Shown piece after piece: positions 29,631 through 51,240 of a DNA stretch of 64,000 nucleotides. The position numbers and the translations under genes were made by a program. Origin of the DNA: the human T2T-CHM13v2.0 reference genome, Homo sapiens; the NCBI GenBank assembly GCA_009914755.4, contig CP086569.2:15744001-15808000 (forward strand). The letters run 5' to 3'. A model generated the notes under the pieces. The model was not told the DNA's origin. It worked only from the letters and a program-made list of their open reading frames with translations, and made no database searches. How positions within the stretch are numbered: position 1 is the first letter of the stretch; each line of letters begins with the position of its first letter.

Positions 29631-31085
29631 CTGGAGACAAATAACAAGTTCTGAAATTGAGGCAGTAATTAATAGCCTACAGAAAAAAAAAAAAAATCTA
29701 GGACTGGATGGATTCACTTTAGAATTCTACCAGAGGTACAAATAGTAGTTGGTACCATTCTTTCTGAAACTATTCCAAACAATAGAAAAAGAGGGACCCT
29801 ACCTAACTCATTTTATGAGTCCAGCATCATCCTGATACTAAAAACTGGAAAAGACAAAACAAAAAAAGAAAATTTCAGGCCAATATCACTGGTGAACATT
29901 GACGTGAAAATCATCAATAAAATACTGGCAAACCAAATCCAGTAGCTTGTCAAAAAGATTATCCAACACTGTCAGTTCAGCTTCATCTCAGGAATGCAAG
30001 GCTGGTTCAATATACACAAATCAATAAACATAATCCACCACATAAACAGAACCAATGACAAAAAACACATAATTATCTCAACAGATGCAGAAAAGGCCTT
30101 TGACAAAGTTCAACATCCCTTCATGCTAAAAACTCTCAATAAACTAGGTTTTTATGGTATGTATCTGAAAATAATAAGAGCCATTTATGACAAACCCATA
30201 GCAAATATCATACTTAATTGGCAAAAACTGGAAACAATTACTTTGAAAAACAGCACAAGAAAAGAAAGCCCTCTCTCACCACTGCTATTCAACGTAGTAT
30301 AGGAATTTCTGGCCAGGACAACGAGGTAAGAGAGAGAAATGAAGAGTATTCAATTAAGAAAATAAAAAGTCAAATTGTCTCTGTTTGCAGATGACATGAT
30401 TGTATATGTAGAAATCCTCATTATCTCAGCCCAAAGTCTCCTTAAGCTGACAAGCAAGTCTCAGGATACAAAATCAATGTGAAAAAATCACAAGCATTCC
30501 TATACACTAATAACAGATAATCAGAAAGCCAAATCATGAGTCAGCTCCCATTCACTATTGCTATAAAGGAATAAAATATCTAGGAATACAACTCACAAGG
30601 GATGTGAAGGACTTCTTCAAGGAGAACTACAAACCACTGCTCAAGGAATTAAGAGAGGACAAAAACAAATGGAAAAACATTACATGCTCATGGATAGGAA
30701 GAATCAAATCATGAAAATGGCCATACTGCCCAAAGTAATTTATAGATCCAATGCTATCACCATCAAGCAACCATGACTTTCTTCACAGAATTAGAAAAAA
30801 CTATTGTAAACTTCACAGGGAACCAAAAAAGAGCCCACCTAGCCAAGAATACCCTAAGCAAAAAGAACAAAGCTGGAGGTATCAAGCTACCTGACTTCAA
30901 ACTATACTACAAAGCTACAGTAACGAAAACAGCAAGGTACTTGTACCAAAACAGATATATAGACCAAAGGAACAGAACAGAGTTCTCAGAAATAATACCA
31001 CACATCTACAGCCATCTGATCTTTGACAAACTTGACAAAAATAAGGAATGGAGAAAGGATTCCTTATTTAATAAATGGTGTTGAA
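29631..31085 (+). mobile_element. Old LINE-1 segment B (ORF2 RT region), continuation of segment A after the younger L1. Cut at 31085 by the ERV insertion.
   Basis: ...gacaaataacaagttctgaaattgaggcagtaattaatagcctac ... ggctggttcaatatacacaaatcaataaacataatccaccacataaacagaaccaatgac ... ggattccttatttaataaatggtg|. About 650 bp of L1 is missing between the end of segment A and the start of segment B. Confidence 0.85.
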
Positions 31086-31591
31086 TGCCAAGTTTGTACT
31101 GCAGATTCTGGCCAAGAAACAGATGAAAGAAGTAAGCAGATTCAGGTATTTTGCCTGACAGAGCAGCTAAGGGACTGCATGGCTTAGCACAGCTGATGAG
31201 AGTGCAGCTGCAGCAGCCTCAGTAAGCCAAAGATGCTCACATTTATTTTTGTGTAGATCTGGGGACAAAGGCCTGGAGCCAATGCAATTTGTAATTAACA
31301 TGGTTGACCCCCCAAGTAGAGGGCAGTCCTGTGCACGAATGATCAAAGGTTGGTTTCTGGAGACATAAGTAAATCAATTTATCTGATAAGTTCCTTTACA
31401 TTCCCTTGTTAACTACCCTTTACCCTAAAGAGAATTTAGCTGTCATCAGCTAAATTTAACTCCAGAATTTAGCTTCTGTCATCAGCTAAATTCTCTTCTG
31501 AGGTTTTTCAAAACCTCCTGGCCTTCCAAGAAGGTTTGTGTCTTTCCCTATTAACGTTTATAAATTTTCCAACCACTCTGATCAATCTACA
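31086..31591 (-). repeat. ERV 3' LTR (506 bp)
   Basis: About 80-85% identical to the 37022-37518 copy by eye. It contains the palindrome gaatttagctgtcatcagctaaattc twice (31432-31493), against once in the 5' LTR. Confidence 0.85.
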
Positions 31592-31620
31592 TCTCCCCTT
31601 TTTTTGTGTTTTTTTTTTGC
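31592..31620 (-). other. ERV polypurine tract (shown as its reverse complement on the + strand)
   Basis: + strand tctcccctttttttgtgttttttttttgc, which on the proviral sense strand is GCAAAAAAAAAACACAAAAAAAGGGGAGA immediately 5' of the 3' LTR start TGTAG... Confidence 0.75.
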
Positions 31621-32337
31621 ATCAGATTTTGTTGTTTGGAGAGTACAGATGTGTGCAGCAACAGGTTTGTCAGGTGCAGCAGTTATAATTCATATTCTGG
31701 CTTTGAATCCTGGAATTAGTAAATAACATAAGGAAAACATGAGTATAATCAGTAATATTCTTTTCTAATCAAAGAGTGACCCCCCAGGAGTGGCGTTCTA
31801 TCCAGAAGAGATGTTCTTGCACATCCTTCCATATGGCTGTTTGTTGGGTGTATAGATGTACAGCATTTAGAGACTCTAGAATTTTAGTTTTAAGTTTCTT
31901 TACATCTGTGGTTAAATTATAATGTAGGGCTCCCCAGAGGTGTTGTTTTACCTCATCCTAACTATGTATTGATTGATTCTAAGATAGAGAGGTGACACAG
32001 ATATGTTTATGACACCTGTCACAGTTTAATTGCTGTTGGAATGTCAGTGCATCTTTCCAATCCTCTACATATTCCAAGGCAGCCTCAAGGGCTTGCAGTC
32101 ATGCAAGCATCTTTTGATCTATATCCTGCTGTAAGAGAAGCTCATTAGACATATTTATGTCTAAGTTATATATAAAGGTAGCTGTTTGTACTGATTCAGT
32201 AATAGAGGTCACAGCAACACTAGCAGTTGCCAAGAGACTATGGCTGAGACTCTAAAGACTATAAGTGTGCCTATGAATCTTTTGGGTTTTGCTTGGAACA
32301 GGGCACGTTCTCAGGTGGCAAGGGCAGAGGGACCTTA

Positions 32338-33486
32338 CTAATCATGTGTCAAATTGACTGATAGAAATGCCTCAGCTTGCCTCCTTAATACCATGACACT
32401 AGTAATATTTAAATTAGATATATTATAATTAGTGATACCTGAGGTGAACCAAGCCTGTCCTTGCATTTGGGTCACAAACGTGTAGTTTTGGGGTGTAATG
32501 GATATATTTTTCTCATAAAGAAAATATATGGATAGGTAGTGTAAATCAGGCACTGATCTTGTGATTATGAATAAAGGTCATAGTATAATTGTTACTGAAA
32601 TTACAATATATCCTATGTCAGGTGTTAAGGGAGATGCTAAGATGTCCCAGGCACTGTAGGGTATCTTGGGATATCACATCCCTGCATTGGCCCAAATCAT
32701 AGGGGAATAGGACATGGCTAAAAAACTGTGATTGATGCCATCAGGGATTTGGACATCAGTATGGTCGCCCTGCAAATGGCCTTGGGGGCTCCAGTCTAAG
32801 ACATTATAATTGTCTAACTGGAGGCTACAAGCTAGTCCCCCATGACAGACCTCCAAGCCAAAGTGGAATCCATTACTTTGTTCTTTAGTACAGGAGGAAA
32901 TGTTGGGGAAAGTGGCATTAGTTGTATATCCAGTTTGAGGCTACCTGCAACCAAGAATGTTAAGGCATTTCCTTTGCCATAACGTAGCTGTAATTGTGTT
33001 TGGGCAGGTACTCAGTAAGGGTTAGAACTTTTATAACTTATACTTAGTGGGAGGATGGTGGAGTGATAGGTAGTGTTACCTGGCACCTTAGTCCAAATTG
33101 TGTCATTAATGAGGGACCCCACTGGGAGTAAGCCAATCCAATCCCTCCTAGGCAAGCAGTTACATTATTAGAGGATGAGAGGGTGTGTCTGCTCAAGTAA
33201 TAGGGAAGATGAAAGGCGGATCTAAGAGCTAAGCCCAATACAGTGTAGCAGTTACGGGTTGCAGACAAAGTGAGAGCATAAAAAAGGATAAAAACCCTAC
33301 ACGAGTTGCAATGTACAATAGAAAGCATAGAAAGGAATAAATTACATGAAGTGAATGTTGTCTGTATCCAGAGCAGGATTCGCTCAGTCTTCTGAGTTGT
33401 CTTTTCAGCATCCCCCAGTTAATGTCTGGGGCTTGTGTCATCTGAGGAAACCACGTCGTCCAGGGCTGCAGGTCCTGCAGGGTCAT
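32338..33486 (-). pseudogene. ERV env remnant (SU/TM), disrupted
   Basis: Minus-strand ORF fragments at 32338-32553 (N-glycosylation-rich: NISITPQNYTF...NYNISNLNITS), 33044-33328 and 33229-33486 (hydrophobic TM-like ...LCFLLYIATRVGFLSFFMLSLCLQP). Their position between pol and the 3' LTR fits env. Confidence 0.55.
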
Positions 33487-33845
33487 TTTCTTCCTTTCTG
33501 TTACTGAGCTGGGTTATAGCCACTCCATGGTATGCTTTGATGCATTGTGCTGGAATCCAAAAAGGACCTGAGGGGGTGTGAACATAAGCTTATCCTCTTC
33601 TCAAAGTTAGTAAATCATTTAGACCACACCATGCATTACTATTTACATCTTTCCATAAAACTGCATGTTTTAGGTCTTGAGAGGTTTTAACAAAGTGTTT
33701 TTCTATAGTTGACTGAAATTTATTATTTAAATTTAAGAAACCAAGGGTAAATAATGCTTATGCTAATAGTGTTGCAGGGTCCTTACTCATATTCTCTCAT
33801 TTTTGTTTTTGAGCATATTTTTAAGAGAGGAATGGACATGTTCTA

Positions 33846-34741
33846 CTATAGGCTGTCCTTGGGGGTTATAAAGGATGCCTGTGGAATATTGGGTGTGTCA
33901 CATGAGAAAAATTGTTGAAATTGTGAGCAGGCATAAGCTGGATGCTTAGCAGTTTTAATTTTTGTGGGCCACCCCATAAATGCCAAAGTTAAAAGAAGAT
34001 GTTTAATGACATTGGTTGCAATCTCCTGGAATAACATGTGCGCTAATTAGGTTGATAATTGATATCAATGAATACATATACATATCTAAGTTTTCTAAAT
34101 TCAGGGACATGAGTAACATCTGTTTGCCATAACTGATTAGGTTCTAGTCCCATAGGGTTAACACCTGTTGAAAGAGAGGATGTGCCTGTGATCTAGCAAT
34201 CTGGGCATTGCAGGATAATTTGTTTAAATAGTCTTTGGGTGTGTTGAAATTGTTTAGATAAGTATCTCCAATTTGGTGGAAAAAAAATGATGTGATTGGG
34301 AGGTTTGGTCAAGCAGTGATGCCATAAATTGCAGGTCTGCTTGATCATTGCCATAAGCCAGTGGTCCAAGCAATGAGATGAGGACTCAAATATATGTGAT
34401 AAAAACATGATGTGTACCTTGGTCCAGCAACTGGTGACGTCGAAGAAAAAGTCCAAATATGGTGGGCTCAAGAGTGGACTTAATGAGGGATATCTTAAGG
34501 TTTTGTAATAAGCATTGTGAGCAGAGACACTAACAATATTGATAGGCTGAGCAGAAAATGCTTCTAAGGCCAATATTAGGGCTCCAACCACAGCTTTCTG
34601 AGTGCTAGTAAATCCAGATTGAGTGAGGGAGTTATGCAATTCCCACCCAATAGCTGCTTTTTCACTTTTGCCAGAGCCATCTGTAAAAAGTGTTAAAACG
34701 TTATGTATGGGGGAGTGAATTACTTTGGTAGGCATAACCAC
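33846..34741 (-). pseudogene. ERV pol remnant: RNase H (34193-34741) and integrase core (33846-34037), disrupted
   Basis: 34193-34741(-) ...LTLFTDGSGKSEKAAIGWELHNSLTQSGFTSTQKAVVGALILALEAF... is an RNase H-like (TDGS...AE..AL) domain. 33846-34037(-) ...WPTKIKTAKHPAYACSQFQQFF is an integrase catalytic-core-like (K.D.GP.Y.S..F..F) segment. Confidence 0.7.
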
Positions 34742-35087
34742 AGGATTATGAGATAAGAATTGAAGTAGTATGTTAGCAGGAAGGGAATGTTCTATATGGC
34801 TTGTGTAATCCGTGTGCTAGTTGCAGGTCTAGAGATAAAGGCAAGACTTCCTGGAGTTGCATTTTACTCAAGGAAATTCTTATGACATCAGGGTCATAAC
34901 CTAGCAACTGATTGTATGATCTGTGGCCTGAATAGATGACTTTGCTAACTAGCTGGATATAGGGAGATAATGTTTTAGTCCTGGTATACGAGCAAAAAAA
35001 CCCATTCTAGTAAGTGCAGCTCTGGGGCCATTTGTCATGTTGATATTTTTGGGGAATGCTTAGTAGGAAAAACAATTGGATTGAATA

Positions 35088-35671
35088 TTATGGGTCCATG
35101 CGATCTAGTTGCCTCTGAGAAATGGCTTGCTTTGCTTCCTCAATTTCTCTTTTTGCTTCAGGAATTAAATACCTGGGAGAGGTCAGGGCTGTATTGCCCT
35201 TAAGCATAGAAAATAGGTTTTGTAACTTATCAGTAGTTATGCCTAACATGACACGAAGCCAATTAATATCACCCAGTAATTTTTGGTAATCATTTAAGGC
35301 ATATAAATTGCTAGTATTTAATTTAACATTTTGAGGTCTTACTGACCAGAAAGCTATTATGTATCCAAAATATCTCCAAGGAGAGGACATGTATACTTTT
35401 TTCAGATGCTATGATTAAACTTATTAACTGTGTATTCTTTTGAACAGAGGCATATAAACTTAAAAGTACTGGATCTGTTAGTGGCTCCTGGTAAAATATA
35501 ATCCATAAAATTAATAATCTGGCAATTAGAAAAATCTATTTTACTGGGGAGCAAAGTGTGATTTACATGATACTGACACATGGTAGGACTGTTCAGCAAC
35601 CCTTGAGGTGTGCTTTCCAAGAAATCAGTGAACTGGCCTTCATTATTGATAGCTGGTATTGTAAATGCCAA
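35088..35671 (-). pseudogene. ERV pol remnant: reverse transcriptase, disrupted
   Basis: 35402-35671(-) ...AFTIPAINNEGQFTDFLESTPQGLLNSPTMCQYHVNHTL... carries the betaretroviral RT motif (compare HERV-K F.IPS.N....FQW.VLPQGMLNSPTICQ). 35088-35390(-) is the RT thumb/connection-like region. Confidence 0.75.
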
Positions 35672-35926
35672 TTTTTCTCTTTCTTTTTCTGCAAGGGGAA
35701 TGGTATAAAATAATCTTTTAAGTAAATAATGACTATAGACTAATTTTGAGGAATCACCACAGGGGAAGGGAGCTCCTGTTGAAGGGGCCCCATAGGTTAC
35801 AGATTAGCATTAGTAGTCCATAGGTCATGTAAAAGTCTCAATTTGCCAGATCTTTTGTGTATGATGAAAATGGGCAAATTCTAAGTGCTGTTTGATGGTC
35901 CTATATGGCTGGCTTTTCATTTCTCC

Positions 35927-36881
35927 TCAACTAATGTATGGGCTTATTTTAATTTCTCTCCCTTTAAAGGCCACTGCTCTACCTAAATTAGATTTTGAGA
36001 GAGCCATGTTAGGGGTAGGGGAGGAACAACAACAGTGGTCATAATTAGAAAAGGGTTTGCTGTTCACATTATTCATTAAGTTCTGTCCTCTAGAGGAGGA
36101 ATTACTTGGCATCTAAAGTTGTTTTAGCTAGCACGGACCAGTTCCATGGGGTCATATGGAAGTTGTCTGCTAGGGCTTCAATTAATCCTTTTGTAAATGG
36201 GCTAACAGCCTCGTTGTCTCTAATGCTTTTCCTTATCTCTTTGTAAGCGTCAAAAGAAATATGTTCATATATCTGATTGCCTTGTTGATCTTGCATTACT
36301 AAACAGGCTAAGAGCTTGCTTTTAATGCTGTATGCCTAAGACAGGGTCCAATACCTGTAGTGCATCCCTTGTCTTTTTTCCAGTATATTGTGGGACGGAG
36401 CTCAGGCAAAACCTCTATTTCCTCTTTGGTATTTTTGCCTGGTAATGGTGAGGCTGAGGAATAAGGAGGAGGCAGTAATGTGGGTGACAGTTCCTCCTCC
36501 CTTCCCTTTTTAGGCTCTTCTGTGTAGAGTGAGATGAAAGCAGCCCTAACTAAGGCCCATAACCTTAGAGATTTTACTGGAATTCATTGCCCTTGTGCAT
36601 GATGTTGTCTAAAATTTTTCCTCACTTGTTCCCAGAGCTATAGATCTAGTTCTATAGAAATATAGAACCCCTCTTCTGGAACTTGGAGAGTTCAAGTAGT
36701 ATGTTACTTCAGAACCCCTAGTTCTATAGAACGCCTCTTCTGGAAACCATGGGTTATGGGAAACAACAGTTTGCATTAGGTGCCTTAATTGAGCCTGCAA
36801 AACTGAGACTCTGCTAGCTTTAAACAGCTGTTTCAATAGTTTTATATACTGCTGCCATTGAGCTGATGACTGTTTTCTCAT
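35927..36881 (-). pseudogene. ERV gag remnant (probable), disrupted
   Basis: Minus-strand ORF fragments lie between the PBS and pol (36609-36881, 36102-36296, 35927-36112). The assignment is by position; no Cys-His box was verified. Confidence 0.4.
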
Positions 36882-37001
36882 GATGAAACCCTTGCCTGAA
36901 CCATTCCTTCAAACTTGGAAATCCTGAGCAGGCACCAATGACTTAATGATTGCACAGTCTCTTACCTTTTTCAAGGGATCCATTGTGATCCTTTGCAGTG
37001 T

Positions 37002-37019
37002 TCCTCACATGGGGCACCA
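37002..37019 (-). other. ERV primer-binding site complementary to the 3' end of elongator tRNA-Met (17/18 match)
   Basis: + strand tcctcacatggggcacca gives a proviral-sense TGGTGCCCCATGTGAGGA. From memory the 3' 18 nt of tRNA-Met(CAU) are TCCTCACACGGGGCACCA, giving a perfect PBS of TGGTGCCCCGTGTGAGGA. The single difference is a CpG to CpA transition. It lies 2 nt inside the 5' LTR end. Confidence 0.7.
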
Positions 37020-37021
37020 TC

Positions 37022-37518
37022 TGCCAAGTCTTCCCTACAGACTCTGGTTGAGCTATGCATGAAAGAAGTACACAGACAGGGATTATGCCTGACAGCGCGG
37101 CTAAGGGACAGCACAACCAAGCACTGCCAATGAGAATGCAGCTGCAGCAGCCTCAATAAGCCAGAGACGCTCACATTTATTTAGTACAGATTTAATGACA
37201 AAGTCCTGGAGCAAACACAATTTATGGGTAATTAACATGTCGACCCACCAAGTAGAGAGCACTCCTGCATTTCAATGATCAAATGTTGGCTTCTGGAGAC
37301 AAAGTAAACCAATTTATCTAGATAACCTCCTTTACATTCCCTTTCTATCTACTTACCCTTTGCCCTAAAGATAATTTTGCTGCCCTAAAAAGAATTTAGC
37401 TGAAGGCAGCTAAATTCTCTTCTGAAGCTTTTGCAAAATCTCTCTGCCTTCCAAGAAGGTTTGTGTCTTTCCCTAAAACTTTTATAACTTTTTCCACCAC
37501 CCTGAATGATCTTCTACA
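37022..37518 (-). repeat. ERV 5' LTR (497 bp)
   Basis: See the provirus entry. It starts tgccaagtc and ends cttctaca. Confidence 0.85.
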
Positions 37519-37524
37519 GTTGAG

Positions 37525-38738
37525 AAAGCTGGCTAGCCATATGCAGAAAGCTGAAACTAGATCCCTTTCTTACACCTTATTCAAAAATTAACTCAAGGTA
37601 TGTTAAAGACTTAAATGTAAGAACTGAAACAATAAAAAACTTAGAAGAAAACCATTTAGGATATAGGCATGGGCAAAGACTTCATGACTAAAAAACAAAA
37701 AGCAACGGCAACAAAAGCCAAAATTGACAAATGGGATCTAATTAAACTAAAGAGCTTCTGTACAGCAAAAGAAACTATCATTAGAGTGAAAAGGCAACCT
37801 ACAGAATGGGAGAAAATTTTTGTAATCCACTCATCTGACAAAGGGCTAAAATCCAGAATCTAAAAGGAAGTTAAACAAACATACAAAAAAAAAAAGCAAC
37901 CCCATCAAAAAGTGGATGAAGGATACAAACAGATGCTTCCCAAAAAAAGACATTTATGCAGCCAATAAACATATGAAAAAAAGCTTATCACCACTGGTTA
38001 TTAGATAAACACAAATCAAATTCACAATGAGATACCATCTCATGCTAGTTAGAATGGCAACTATTAAAAAGTCAGGAAAAAACAGATGTTGGAGAGGATG
38101 TGGAGAAATAGGAATGCTTTTACAATGTTGGGAGTGTAAATTAGTTCAACCATTGTGGAAGGCAGTATGGCAATTCCTCAAGGTTGTAGAACCAAAAATA
38201 CCATTTGACCCAGCAATCTGATTATTATGTATATAGCCAACTTATTATAAATCATTCTACTAAAAAGACACATGCACACTTATGTTTTTGGGACACTGTT
38301 CACAATAGCAAAAACCTGGAACCAACCCAAATGTCCAGCAATGATAGACTGGATAAAGTAAATGTGGCACATATACACCATGGAGTACTATGCAGCCATA
38401 AAAAATGATGAATTCATAGCCTTTGCAGGGACCATGGATGAAGCTGGAAACCATCATTCTCAGCAAACTAACACAGGAACAGAAACCAAACACCACATGT
38501 TCTTACTTGTAAGTGGGATTTGAACAATGAGAACACATGGACACAGGGAGGGGAACATCACACACTGGGACCTGTCAGTGGGTGGGGGACTAGGGAAGGG
38601 ATAGCATTAGGAGAAATACCTAATATAGATGATGGGTTGATGCGTGCAGGAAACCACCAGGGCAAGTTTATACCTATGTAACAAAGCTGTATGTTCTGCA
38701 GTACTTAAAGTATAATTAAAAAAAATAGAAAAAAAAAA
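37525..38738 (+). mobile_element. Old LINE-1 segment C: ORF2 C-terminus, 3' UTR and poly-A. This is the 3' end of the same old L1 that is split by the ERV.
   Basis: ctggctagccatatgcagaaagctgaaactagatccctttcttacaccttattcaaaaattaactcaag ... ggaaccaacccaaatgtccagcaatgatagactggataaag ... acctatgtaacaaagctgtatgttctgcagtacttaaagtataattaaaaaaaatagaaaaaaaaaa. Confidence 0.9.

Positions 38739-40576: not shown

Positions 40577-41026
<450 letters not shown>

Positions 41027-44777: not shown

Positions 44778-51240
<6,463 letters not shown>

What the first reader, a model, noticed from the sequence alone, without database searches (positions are those of the whole stretch)
31086..37518. Class II (betaretrovirus-like) provirus with a tRNA-Met primer-binding site, about 500 bp LTRs and a 6 bp TSD
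The structure is complete: LTR-PBS-gag-pol-env-PPT-LTR. The flanking hexamers are gttgaa and gttgag, and a 6 bp TSD is typical of betaretroviruses/HERV-K. The RT motif is PQGLLNSPTMCQ, HERV-K-like. The PBS TGGTGCCCCATGTGAGGA matches elongator tRNA-Met 17/18 rather than the tRNA-Lys used by most HERV-K(HML) groups. The LTRs are short (about 500 bp, against about 970 bp for HML-2 LTR5). Together these point to an old, minor HML group, and HML-5/HERVK22 is my best guess from memory. Eyeballed LTR-LTR divergence is high, on the order of 15-20%, implying an ancient integration predating the catarrhine radiation. The internal region is only about 5.4 kb, so gag, pro and env carry large deletions.
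Basis: partly seen in the sequence, partly recalled or inferred. Interest (0 to 1): 0.5.

Follow-up and report, generated by a model that had tools for sequence, protein, structure and literature searches.

The report
Old HML-5 (HERVK22) endogenous retrovirus copy

Summary
Window 31086-37518 holds a 6,433-bp provirus on the minus strand. It has two LTRs (497 and 506 bp, TG…CA ends) and an 18-nt PBS that matches elongator tRNA-Met 17/18, with the single mismatch at a CpG. It also has a polypurine tract and a 6-bp target-site duplication. Removing the element plus one hexamer restores an L1 ORF2 sequence with no indel.

Gag, Pol and Env remnants lie in retroviral order. Their best matches are MMTV integrase, HERV-K(HML-2) RT and HML-2 TM, so the element is class II (betaretrovirus-like).

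A labelled test places it in HML-5. The published HML5 Env consensus aligns over residues 4-600 of 609 (E = 4e-146). Every other HML group matches only the TM core.

LTR divergence is 18.8% (K2P 0.22). That gives about 45-50 My at 2.2-2.3e-9 substitutions/site/yr, or about 21 My at the fastest published rate.

There is a single deletion, running from mid-capsid to the start of RT. It removes the rest of CA, NC and all of pro.

All reading frames are broken. The element is already known, and interest is low.

The parts
31080..31085 (+). Target-site duplication, left copy (GTTGAA), within the host L1 ORF2 fragment
   Evidence: The empty-site reconstruction with one hexamer is collinear with two other L1 copies in the window, with no indel.
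31086..31591 (-). 3' LTR (506 bp, TG…CA). AATAAA lies at 31247..31242. The U3 palindrome region carries an extra 16-nt block compared with the 5' LTR.
31592..31605 (-). Polypurine tract AAAAAAAGGGGAGA, immediately 5' of the 3' LTR
   Evidence: minus-strand read-out of 31570-31640.
31700..33447 (-). env, full length but with about 20 stop codons (16 in the SU segment, 4 in the TM segment). SU runs to the furin-like site KPKR|FIG at 32289..32269, and TM covers 32236..31700. The HML5-type immunosuppressive-domain motif LLLQQDIDQKMLAXLQALEAALE lies at 32140..32072.
   Evidence: HML5a Env consensus residues 4-600 of 609, E = 4e-146. Pfam GP41. HML-2 TM; collinear with paralogue L013; coordinates and stop counts; the motif matches 20/23.
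33470..36051 (-). pol (RT, thumb/connection, RNase H, IN), essentially full length but spread over three frames, with 19 stops in the 839-aa stitched read. The RT motif PQGLLNSPTMCQ is at 35608..35573. The YXDD box has decayed to FMDY at 35509..35492. The IN zinc-finger remnant is at about 34318..34196.
   Evidence: SRV-4 Pol residues 6-870 align across this span. HML-2 RT 7sr6 and MMTV IN 7usf/3jca. Pfam RVT_1, RVT_thumb, rve and IN_DBD_C..
36051..36054 (-). Deletion junction, where the truncated CA N-terminal domain abuts the start of RT. The missing part is the rest of CA, NC, dUTPase, protease and G-patch, about 410 codons relative to polyprotein P0011, or roughly 1.2-2 kb.
   Evidence: The Gag, dUTPase and PR portions of the Gag-Pro-Pol probes match nowhere in the window.
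36054..36881 (-). gag remnant. The likely start is MRKQ… at 36881. The MA (Gag_p10) match is at about 36854..36735. A linker follows, containing a short imperfect direct repeat. The N-terminal half of the CA N-terminal domain is at 36290..36054.
   Evidence: Gag_p10 E = 2e-5, Gag_p24 E = 1e-11. MPMV/HML-2 capsid hits..
37002..37019 (-). Primer-binding site TGGTGCCCCATGTGAGGA, complementary to the 3' end of elongator tRNA-Met (17/18; the mismatch is G>A at a CpG)
   Evidence: reference sequences.
37022..37518 (-). 5' LTR (497 bp, TG…CA). AATAAA lies at 37181..37176. A 12-bp perfect inverted repeat, AGAATTTAGCTG/CAGCTAAATTCT, lies at about 37418..37391.
37519..37524 (+). Target-site duplication, right copy (GTTGAG)

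Best explanation
This is a fixed, non-functional provirus of the HERV-K(HML-5) group (Repbase HERVK22 with LTR22-type LTRs, also proposed as 'HERV-M'), a betaretrovirus-like class II endogenous retrovirus of anthropoid primates. It is inserted antisense into an older L1 ORF2 fragment.

Inferred mechanism, from standard retrovirology and the anatomy found here: the viral RNA was reverse-transcribed from an elongator tRNA-Met primer annealed to the PBS, and plus-strand synthesis was primed at the PPT. The viral integrase then inserted the two-LTR DNA with a 6-bp staggered cut, which produced the GTTGAR duplication.

Since then the copy has decayed neutrally. The LTRs differ by about 19%. There are about 19 stops and several frameshifts in pol and about 20 stops in env. 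One deletion of roughly 1.2-2 kb removed the C-terminal part of CA, NC and the whole pro gene.

Shown here: the anatomy, the class, the HML-5 env identity, the PBS match, the TSD and the divergence. Inferred: the replication steps, the age in years, and whether the deletion happened before or after integration.
For: - LTR pair, TG/CA ends, PPT and PBS spacing.
- The 6-bp TSD was proven by empty-site reconstruction against two in-window L1 copies.
- Domain order is Gag_p10, Gag_p24, RVT_1, RVT_thumb, rve, IN_DBD_C, GP41.
- Best solved-structure matches are MMTV IN (E = 3e-29), HML-2 RT (E = 4e-26 to 4e-31) and HML-2 TM (E = 7e-12). HIV and RSV score far lower, and no gammaretroviral protein is in the top 60.
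- All named Pol relatives are betaretroviral or ERV-K-like.
- The PBS matches elongator tRNA-Met 17/18, against at most 13/18 for Ile, Lys1,2, Lys3 and initiator Met.
- The HML5 Env consensus aligns over residues 4-600 of 609 at E = 4e-146 and about 530 bits. The other nine HML groups reach only 56-108 bits.
- The HML5-specific 'LLLQ…' ISD matches 20/23, against at most 4/23 for three representative other-group ISD motifs (HML1a, HML2, HML6b) (Vargiu supplement 2).
- HERVK22 is the only class II family with a Met PBS. Its chimpanzee representative has LTRs of 477/497 bp at 85% identity, a 6-bp TSD and TG/CA ends (PMC1779541). HML-5 is dated to about 55 My (PMC3778440).
- Related copies exist in host-contaminated metagenome contigs. 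L013 is 84% identical over 2.9 kb.
Against: - No labelled LTR22 or HERVK22 nucleotide consensus, and no labelled HML pol set, was available. Group assignment therefore rests on env, the PBS and descriptive features, not on LTR or pol homology.
- The RT neighbour-joining tree was uninformative, because the element sits on a long branch.
- Vargiu et al. stress that mosaic HERVs are common, so an env-only match does not strictly exclude a recombinant. However, the Met PBS at the other end of the element points independently to HML-5.
- The pro-encoded dUTPase and G-patch, which are typical betaretroviral markers, cannot be examined because that region is deleted.
Confidence: 0.95

Rival explanations
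1. A mosaic or recombinant provirus: HML-5 env and PBS combined with gag-pol, or LTRs, from a different class II group.
For: Vargiu et al. 2016 report that mosaic HERV forms are common (title and text). My group-level sequence test covers only env. Pol could not be placed among the HML groups. LTR-only contigs from the same scan are only 68-72% identical to these LTRs, so the LTR subfamily is undetermined.
Against: The two group-diagnostic features lie at opposite ends of the element: the Met PBS next to the 5' LTR, and env next to the 3' LTR. Both say HML-5. The LTRs form a matched pair of the size reported for HERVK22. L013 and L006 show the same env joined to the same LTR type at 81-87% identity. 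There is no abrupt composition or identity break other than the single deletion junction.
Confidence: 0.04
2. A different, non-HML betaretrovirus-like ERV of a non-human primate (for example SRV/SERV-like) that happens to use tRNA-Met.
For: The host species is unknown; only Alu content shows that it is a primate. SRV-type Pol proteins give good tblastn alignments, for example 48% identity over the first 132 aa of SRV-4 Pol.
Against: Env is 55% identical end to end to the human HML5 consensus, and the ISD is of the HML5 type. SRV/MPMV-type viruses carry a gamma-type env, which would hit TLV_coat rather than GP41 (established knowledge; one search shows GP41). The age implied by the LTRs fits HML-5 and not a recent SRV-like endogenisation.
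Confidence: 0.01

Closest known systems
HERV-K(HML-5) = HERVK22 / LTR22 family ('HERV-M'; CERV 39 in chimpanzee)
   Same: - Met-type PBS.
- LTRs of about 480-500 bp with TG/CA ends.
- 6-bp TSD.
- LTR identity of about 81-85%.
- HML5 Env consensus matched end to end, including the aberrant 'LLLQQ…' ISD.
- The proviral body has a gag-pro deletion. As I recall, Lavie et al. 2004 describe many loci that lack gag-protease; that paper could not be read here.
   Different: Nothing at the family level differs. This copy is 6.4 kb, against 7.8 kb for the chimpanzee representative, because of the CA-to-RT deletion. The LTR22 subfamily (A/B/C…) is not determined. The env leader shares an alternative-frame stretch ('…LRRLSESCSGYRQHSLHVIYSFLCFLLYIATRV…') with the HML5b and HML5f subgroup consensus sequences rather than with HML5a.
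HERV-K(HML-2) (HERVK/LTR5)
   Same: Same supergroup and gene order. RT, TM and the SU N-terminus are detectably homologous (7sr6, 9nnd, 9mla). Both make a 6-bp TSD.
   Different: HML-2 uses tRNA-Lys, has LTRs of about 970 bp and is far younger. Its Env consensus matches this element only in the TM core (64 bits, against about 530 for HML5). Its ISD motif, LANQINDL…, matches 4/23.
Exogenous betaretroviruses (MMTV; SRV/MPMV)
   Same: Pol is closest to these viruses (MMTV IN E = 3e-29; SRV-4 Pol aligns over residues 6-870). The MA is of the Gag_p10 type. Both make a 6-bp TSD.
   Different: MMTV and MPMV use tRNA-Lys primers (established knowledge). The MMTV LTR is about 1.3 kb and carries sag. 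MPMV/SRV carry a gamma-type env. This element is a dead germline copy.

Membership tests
Retroviral provirus (LTR-PBS-gag-pol-env-PPT-LTR) | Two direct LTRs with TG…CA termini, flanked by a short target-site duplication | tested here: met
   the 497- and 506-bp LTRs align over 484 columns at 81% identity; the 6-bp TSD was verified by empty-site reconstruction against L1 copies.
Retroviral provirus (LTR-PBS-gag-pol-env-PPT-LTR) | An 18-nt tRNA-complementary PBS just 3' of the 5' LTR, and a PPT just 5' of the 3' LTR | tested here: met
Retroviral provirus (LTR-PBS-gag-pol-env-PPT-LTR) | gag, pol (RT-RNase H-IN) and env homology, in that order, on one strand | tested here: met
Class II / betaretrovirus-like ERV | Pol is closest to betaretroviral Pol rather than to gamma/epsilon (class I) or spuma-like (class III) Pol | tested here: met
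   MMTV IN and HML-2 RT are the top matches, HIV and RSV are far weaker, and no MLV-type protein is in the top 60; all named relatives are betaretroviral or ERV-K-like. No explicit tree with class I and class III outgroups was built.
Class II / betaretrovirus-like ERV | 6-bp target-site duplication | tested here: met
Class II / betaretrovirus-like ERV | A separate pro ORF encoding dUTPase, protease and G-patch | tested here: inconclusive
   No RVP, dUTPase or G-patch signal appears anywhere in the window. The region where they would lie has been deleted (junction at about 36051-36054), so their absence says nothing about the ancestral virus.
Class II / betaretrovirus-like ERV | MA of the Gag_p10 type, and TM of the GP41/HERV-K type (not the gamma-type TLV_coat) | tested here: met
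   PF02337 at 24.8 bits (cut-off 23.9) and PF00517 at 48.9 bits (cut-off 29.6). HML-2 TM structures.
HERV-K(HML-5) / HERVK22 | PBS complementary to tRNA-Met, the only class II primate family with this feature | tested here: met
   17/18 to elongator Met, with the next best at 13/18. The defining statement is in PMC1779541 and PMC3778440.
HERV-K(HML-5) / HERVK22 | Env groups with the HML5 Env consensus rather than with other HML groups | tested here: met
   hml5a scores 529 bits, hml5b 542 bits and hml5g 383 bits. The two highest-scoring subgroup consensuses (hml5a and hml5b) cover the whole protein. HML1-4 and HML6-10 score 56-108 bits in the TM core only. The consensus sequences come from PMC4724089 supplement 4.
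HERV-K(HML-5) / HERVK22 | Aberrant immunosuppressive-domain motif beginning 'LLLQ' | tested here: met
   20/23 to LLLQQGIDQKILACLQALEAALE, against at most 4/23 to the three other-group motifs compared (HML1a, HML2, HML6b). The feature is described in PMC4724089 supplement 2.
HERV-K(HML-5) / HERVK22 | LTRs of about 480-500 bp, homologous to the LTR22 consensus sequences | not testable with these tools
   The length is consistent: 497 and 506 bp here, against 477 and 497 bp in PMC1779541 Table 2. No LTR22 consensus sequence is held, so homology was not tested. Related LTRs were found in contigs L006, L008-L013 and L015, but they are unlabelled.
HERV-K(HML-5) / HERVK22 | Pol falls in the HML-5 clade | tested here: inconclusive
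   identity is 31-40% to all betaretroviral RTs, on a long branch. No labelled HML1-10 pol references were available.
HERV-K(HML-5) / HERVK22 | Old integration (family activity about 35-55 My ago; LTR divergence in the high range) | tested here: met
   K2P is 0.21-0.22, giving 45-50 My at 2.2-2.3e-9/site/yr and about 21 My at 5e-9. Vargiu et al. report 8-23% LTR divergence for HML5 and HML6.

The most novel reading that the evidence does not exclude
The CA-to-RT deletion may not be a private post-integration loss. It could mark a non-autonomous HML-5 variant (gag-N, pol and env retained, pro lost) that was copied in trans by intact HML-5 viruses. In that case the same junction would recur at other loci.
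Probability: 0.12. Interest if true: 0.2.

Novelty: already known. Interest (0 to 1): 0.08.

Why it matters
It matters little. HML-5/HERVK22 proviruses number about 100-140 per human genome, plus hundreds of solo LTRs. They have been catalogued since 2004 and are masked routinely. This locus adds only a clean textbook example: an intact PBS apart from one CpG transition, a verifiable 6-bp TSD inside an L1, a full-length but dead env, and one gag-pro deletion.

Tried and rejected
1. Lavie et al. 2004, the primary HML-5 paper, is not held. I used secondary sources instead.
2. A PBS-pattern scan of viral contigs returned 5 hits. All are chance matches in phage DNA with no similarity to the element.
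3. The element's SU against solved structures gave only chance aldolase hits at E of about 0.1. Pfam on the env frames found only GP41. SU homology became visible only through the better-preserved paralogue L013 and the HML5 consensus.
4. A neighbour-joining tree of RT with retrieved betaretroviral Pols was uninformative because of the long branch and the lack of labelled HML references.
5. None of the family contigs from the metagenome scan reached a 5' LTR-PBS junction, so PBS conservation across copies could not be checked.
6. ARAGORN found no tRNA gene in the window, and Rfam found nothing at gathering thresholds.
7. The HERV-K_REC Pfam match in L013's env leader (23.1 bits, below the 27.5 cut-off) was rejected as evidence for a Rec-like gene. 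It covers the Env N-terminal leader, which is conserved among HML Envs and forms Rec exon 1.
8. Class I and class III readings were rejected, because no gamma-type or spuma-type protein ranks near the betaretroviral hits.
Full report
**1. Observation**

Reading 30800-37800 and running repeat finding showed two direct repeats about 5.93 kb apart. The PBS-like string appears as its reverse complement, so the element lies on the minus strand.

A gapped alignment fixes the 5' LTR at 37518..37022 (497 bp) and the 3' LTR at 31591..31086 (506 bp). Both begin TG and end CA. The alignment has 484 columns, 53 transitions, 38 transversions and 35 gap columns, giving p = 0.188 and K2P = 0.219. With CpG sites masked, K2P is 0.206.

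Two nucleotides after the 5' LTR lies TGGTGCCCCATGTGAGGA (37019..37002). It is the only such site in the window at up to 2 mismatches, where 0.02 are expected by chance. The purine run AAAAAAAGGGGAGA lies immediately upstream of the 3' LTR.

**2. Target-site duplication**

The flanks are L1 ORF2 sequence. Two other L1 copies in the window cover the same site without interruption.

- Joining the flanks and keeping one hexamer gives a sequence collinear with both L1 copies, with no indel.
- Keeping both hexamers leaves a 6-nt insertion.

The 6-bp TSD (GTTGAA/GTTGAG, with one substitution since integration) is therefore demonstrated, not just plausible. Three Alu elements in the window show that the host is a primate.

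**3. Coding content and class**

Three-frame translation of the 5,410-bp interior against Pfam gives, in order: Gag_p10, the Gag_p24 N-terminal domain (profile positions 2-72 only), RVT_1, RVT_thumb, rve, IN_DBD_C and GP41.

Against solved structures the best matches are:

| Match | E-value |
|---|---|
| MMTV integrase (7usf, 3jca) | about 3e-29 |
| HERV-K(HML-2) RT (7sr6), a match in each of the three frames | 4e-26 to 4e-31 |
| HML-2 Env TM (9nnd, 9mla) | about 7e-12 |
| MPMV and HML-2 capsid | weaker |
| HIV and RSV proteins | far weaker |

No gammaretroviral protein appears among the top 60 rows in any frame.

A stitched 839-aa Pol searched against the large protein collection returned 101 hits. 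Every named one is betaretroviral or ERV-K-like: SRV-1/4/5, Prosimian retrovirus 1, Bovine retrovirus CH15, IAP, and 'ERV group K Pol-like'. Class II is therefore established. The quoted RT motif PQGLLNSPTMCQ lies at 35608..35573, and the YXDD box has decayed to FMDY.

**4. What is missing**

- tblastn with retrieved polyproteins aligns SRV-4 Pol residues 6-870 to 36051..33470, so pol is essentially complete.
- The Gag, dUTPase and protease parts of the Gag-Pro-Pol probes match nowhere in the window.
- The CA fragment ends at 36054 and aligns to P0011 residues 60-136, while RT resumes at P0011 residue 546.

There is thus one deletion of about 410 codons, roughly 1.2-2 kb depending on the reference. 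Its junction is at about 36051-36054. It removes the rest of CA, NC and all of pro.

This accounts for the size difference from the 7,830-bp chimpanzee HERVK22 representative. That copy has an interior of about 6.86 kb, against 5.41 kb here.

**5. Env is not deleted**

A metagenome scan with a 22-mer from the LTR core returned host-contamination contigs of the same family.

- L013 aligns to the IN-env-3'LTR part of the element over 2.9 kb at 83.6% identity, and its largest indel is 28 nt.
- L013's better-preserved Env matches HML-2 TM from its first residue (E = 3e-23) and the HML-2 SU N-terminus (E = 3e-4).
- The HML5a Env consensus aligns over residues 4-600 of 609 to window 33447..31700.

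Env is full length but has 20 stop codons.

**6. PBS identity**

I used printed sequences rather than memory. The reverse-complement template for elongator tRNA-Met and an initiator primer come from bioRxiv 10.1101/2020.12.02.402354. The Met, Ile, Lys3 and Lys1,2 PBS sequences come from PMC1084362. The scores are:

| tRNA | Matches out of 18 |
|---|---|
| Elongator Met | 17 |
| Met, variant last base (PMC1084362) | 16 |
| Ile | 13 |
| Lys1,2 | 13 |
| Lys3 | 10 |
| Initiator Met | 8 |

The single mismatch to elongator Met is G>A at the CpG, which is the expected decay.

**7. Group assignment**

The literature gives the following.

- HERVK22 is the sole class II family with a Met PBS. Its representative has LTRs of 477/497 bp at 85% identity, a 6-bp TSD and TG/CA ends (PMC1779541).
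- The HML-5 consensus PBS equals the 3' end of tRNA-Met, and the group is about 55 My old, with about 139 proviruses (PMC3778440).
- HML5 corresponds to HERVK22/LTR22, and LTR divergence is 8-23% for HML5 and HML6 (PMC4724089).

A direct labelled test was possible because supplement 4 of PMC4724089 holds Env consensus sequences for all HML groups. tblastn against the window gives:

| Env consensus | Bits | Coverage and identity |
|---|---|---|
| HML5a | 529 | whole protein, 55% identity, E = 4e-146 |
| HML5b | 542 | whole protein, 54% identity |
| HML5g | 383 | residues 8-533 of 540, 49% identity |
| HML1-4 and HML6-10 | 56-108 | TM core only, 29-34% identity |

The HML5-specific aberrant ISD described in supplement 2 matches 20/23. 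It matches at most 4/23 to the three other-group ISD motifs compared, HML1a, HML2 and HML6b.

The RT tree could not resolve the group, and no LTR22 consensus was available. Those two membership rows stay open.

**8. Age**

- K2P of 0.206-0.219 over two lineages gives about 45-50 My at 2.2-2.3e-9 substitutions/site/yr.
- At 5e-9, the upper bound of the rate range quoted in PMC3778440, it gives about 21 My.

[quoted passage not shown] Gene conversion and rate variation make this a rough figure.

**9. Mechanism**

Inferred from standard retrovirology and the anatomy found here:

1. tRNA-Met primed minus-strand synthesis at the PBS.
2. The PPT primed plus-strand synthesis.
3. Integrase inserted the DNA with a 6-bp stagger into an L1.
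4. The copy then decayed neutrally.

Nothing suggests retained function. The longest ORF is 182 aa, a remnant of RNase H and IN. No Rfam family reaches its threshold anywhere in the window.

**10. Verdict**

The element is an already-known kind of sequence and is of low interest.

Noticed in passing
window 37391-37418 (5' LTR) and about 31430-31500 (3' LTR): The U3 region holds a perfect 12-bp inverted repeat, AGAATTTAGCTG-N4-CAGCTAAATTCT. In the 3' LTR the motif is partly duplicated, with an extra 16-nt block. This accounts for most of the length difference between the two LTRs.
   Followed up: partly
window 36600-36760 (minus strand, gag MA/linker): A short imperfect direct repeat, TTCCAGAAGAGG(C/G)GTTCTATA…GAACTAG, occurs twice about 62 nt apart inside the gag remnant. 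It may be a small internal duplication.
   Followed up: no
window 33330-33480 (env leader): The env leader of this copy reads '…LRRLSESCSGYRQHSLHVIYSFLCFLLYIATRV…'. This resembles the HML5b and HML5f subgroup consensus sequences rather than HML5a ('…TTQEAEQILLQTQTPFTPDNLF…'). It suggests a frameshift shared by a subgroup of HML-5 copies, and so gives a hint of the subgroup. I judged this by eye against the supplement text.
   Followed up: partly
L013 (ERZ941748 contig), env N-terminus: The paralogue's Env leader gives a sub-threshold Pfam HERV-K_REC match (23.1 bits against a cut-off of 27.5). I read this as conservation of the Env leader, which forms Rec exon 1, and not as evidence for a Rec gene.
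   Followed up: partly
window 30800-31085 and 37519-37800; also about 45996-46030 and 51617-51651 (minus strand); Alus near 40577, 47596 and 55021: The provirus lies antisense within an L1 ORF2 fragment. At least two further L1 ORF2 fragments and three Alu elements lie downstream, so this is a repeat-rich primate region.
   Followed up: partly
PMC4724089 supplement 6 (PBS table): RetroTector's PBS table labels near-identical strings (tggtgccccatgtgaggc, tggtgccccacgtgagga, tggtgccccgcatgagga) as K or I with low scores, not as Met. Automated PBS calls for HML-5 loci can therefore be misleading.
   Followed up: no
L008, L009, L010, L012, L015 (metagenome contigs): LTR-only relatives are just 68-72% identical to this element's LTRs, whereas L006 and L013 are 81-87% identical. 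This fits several LTR22 subfamilies, but no labels were available to assign them.
   Followed up: no
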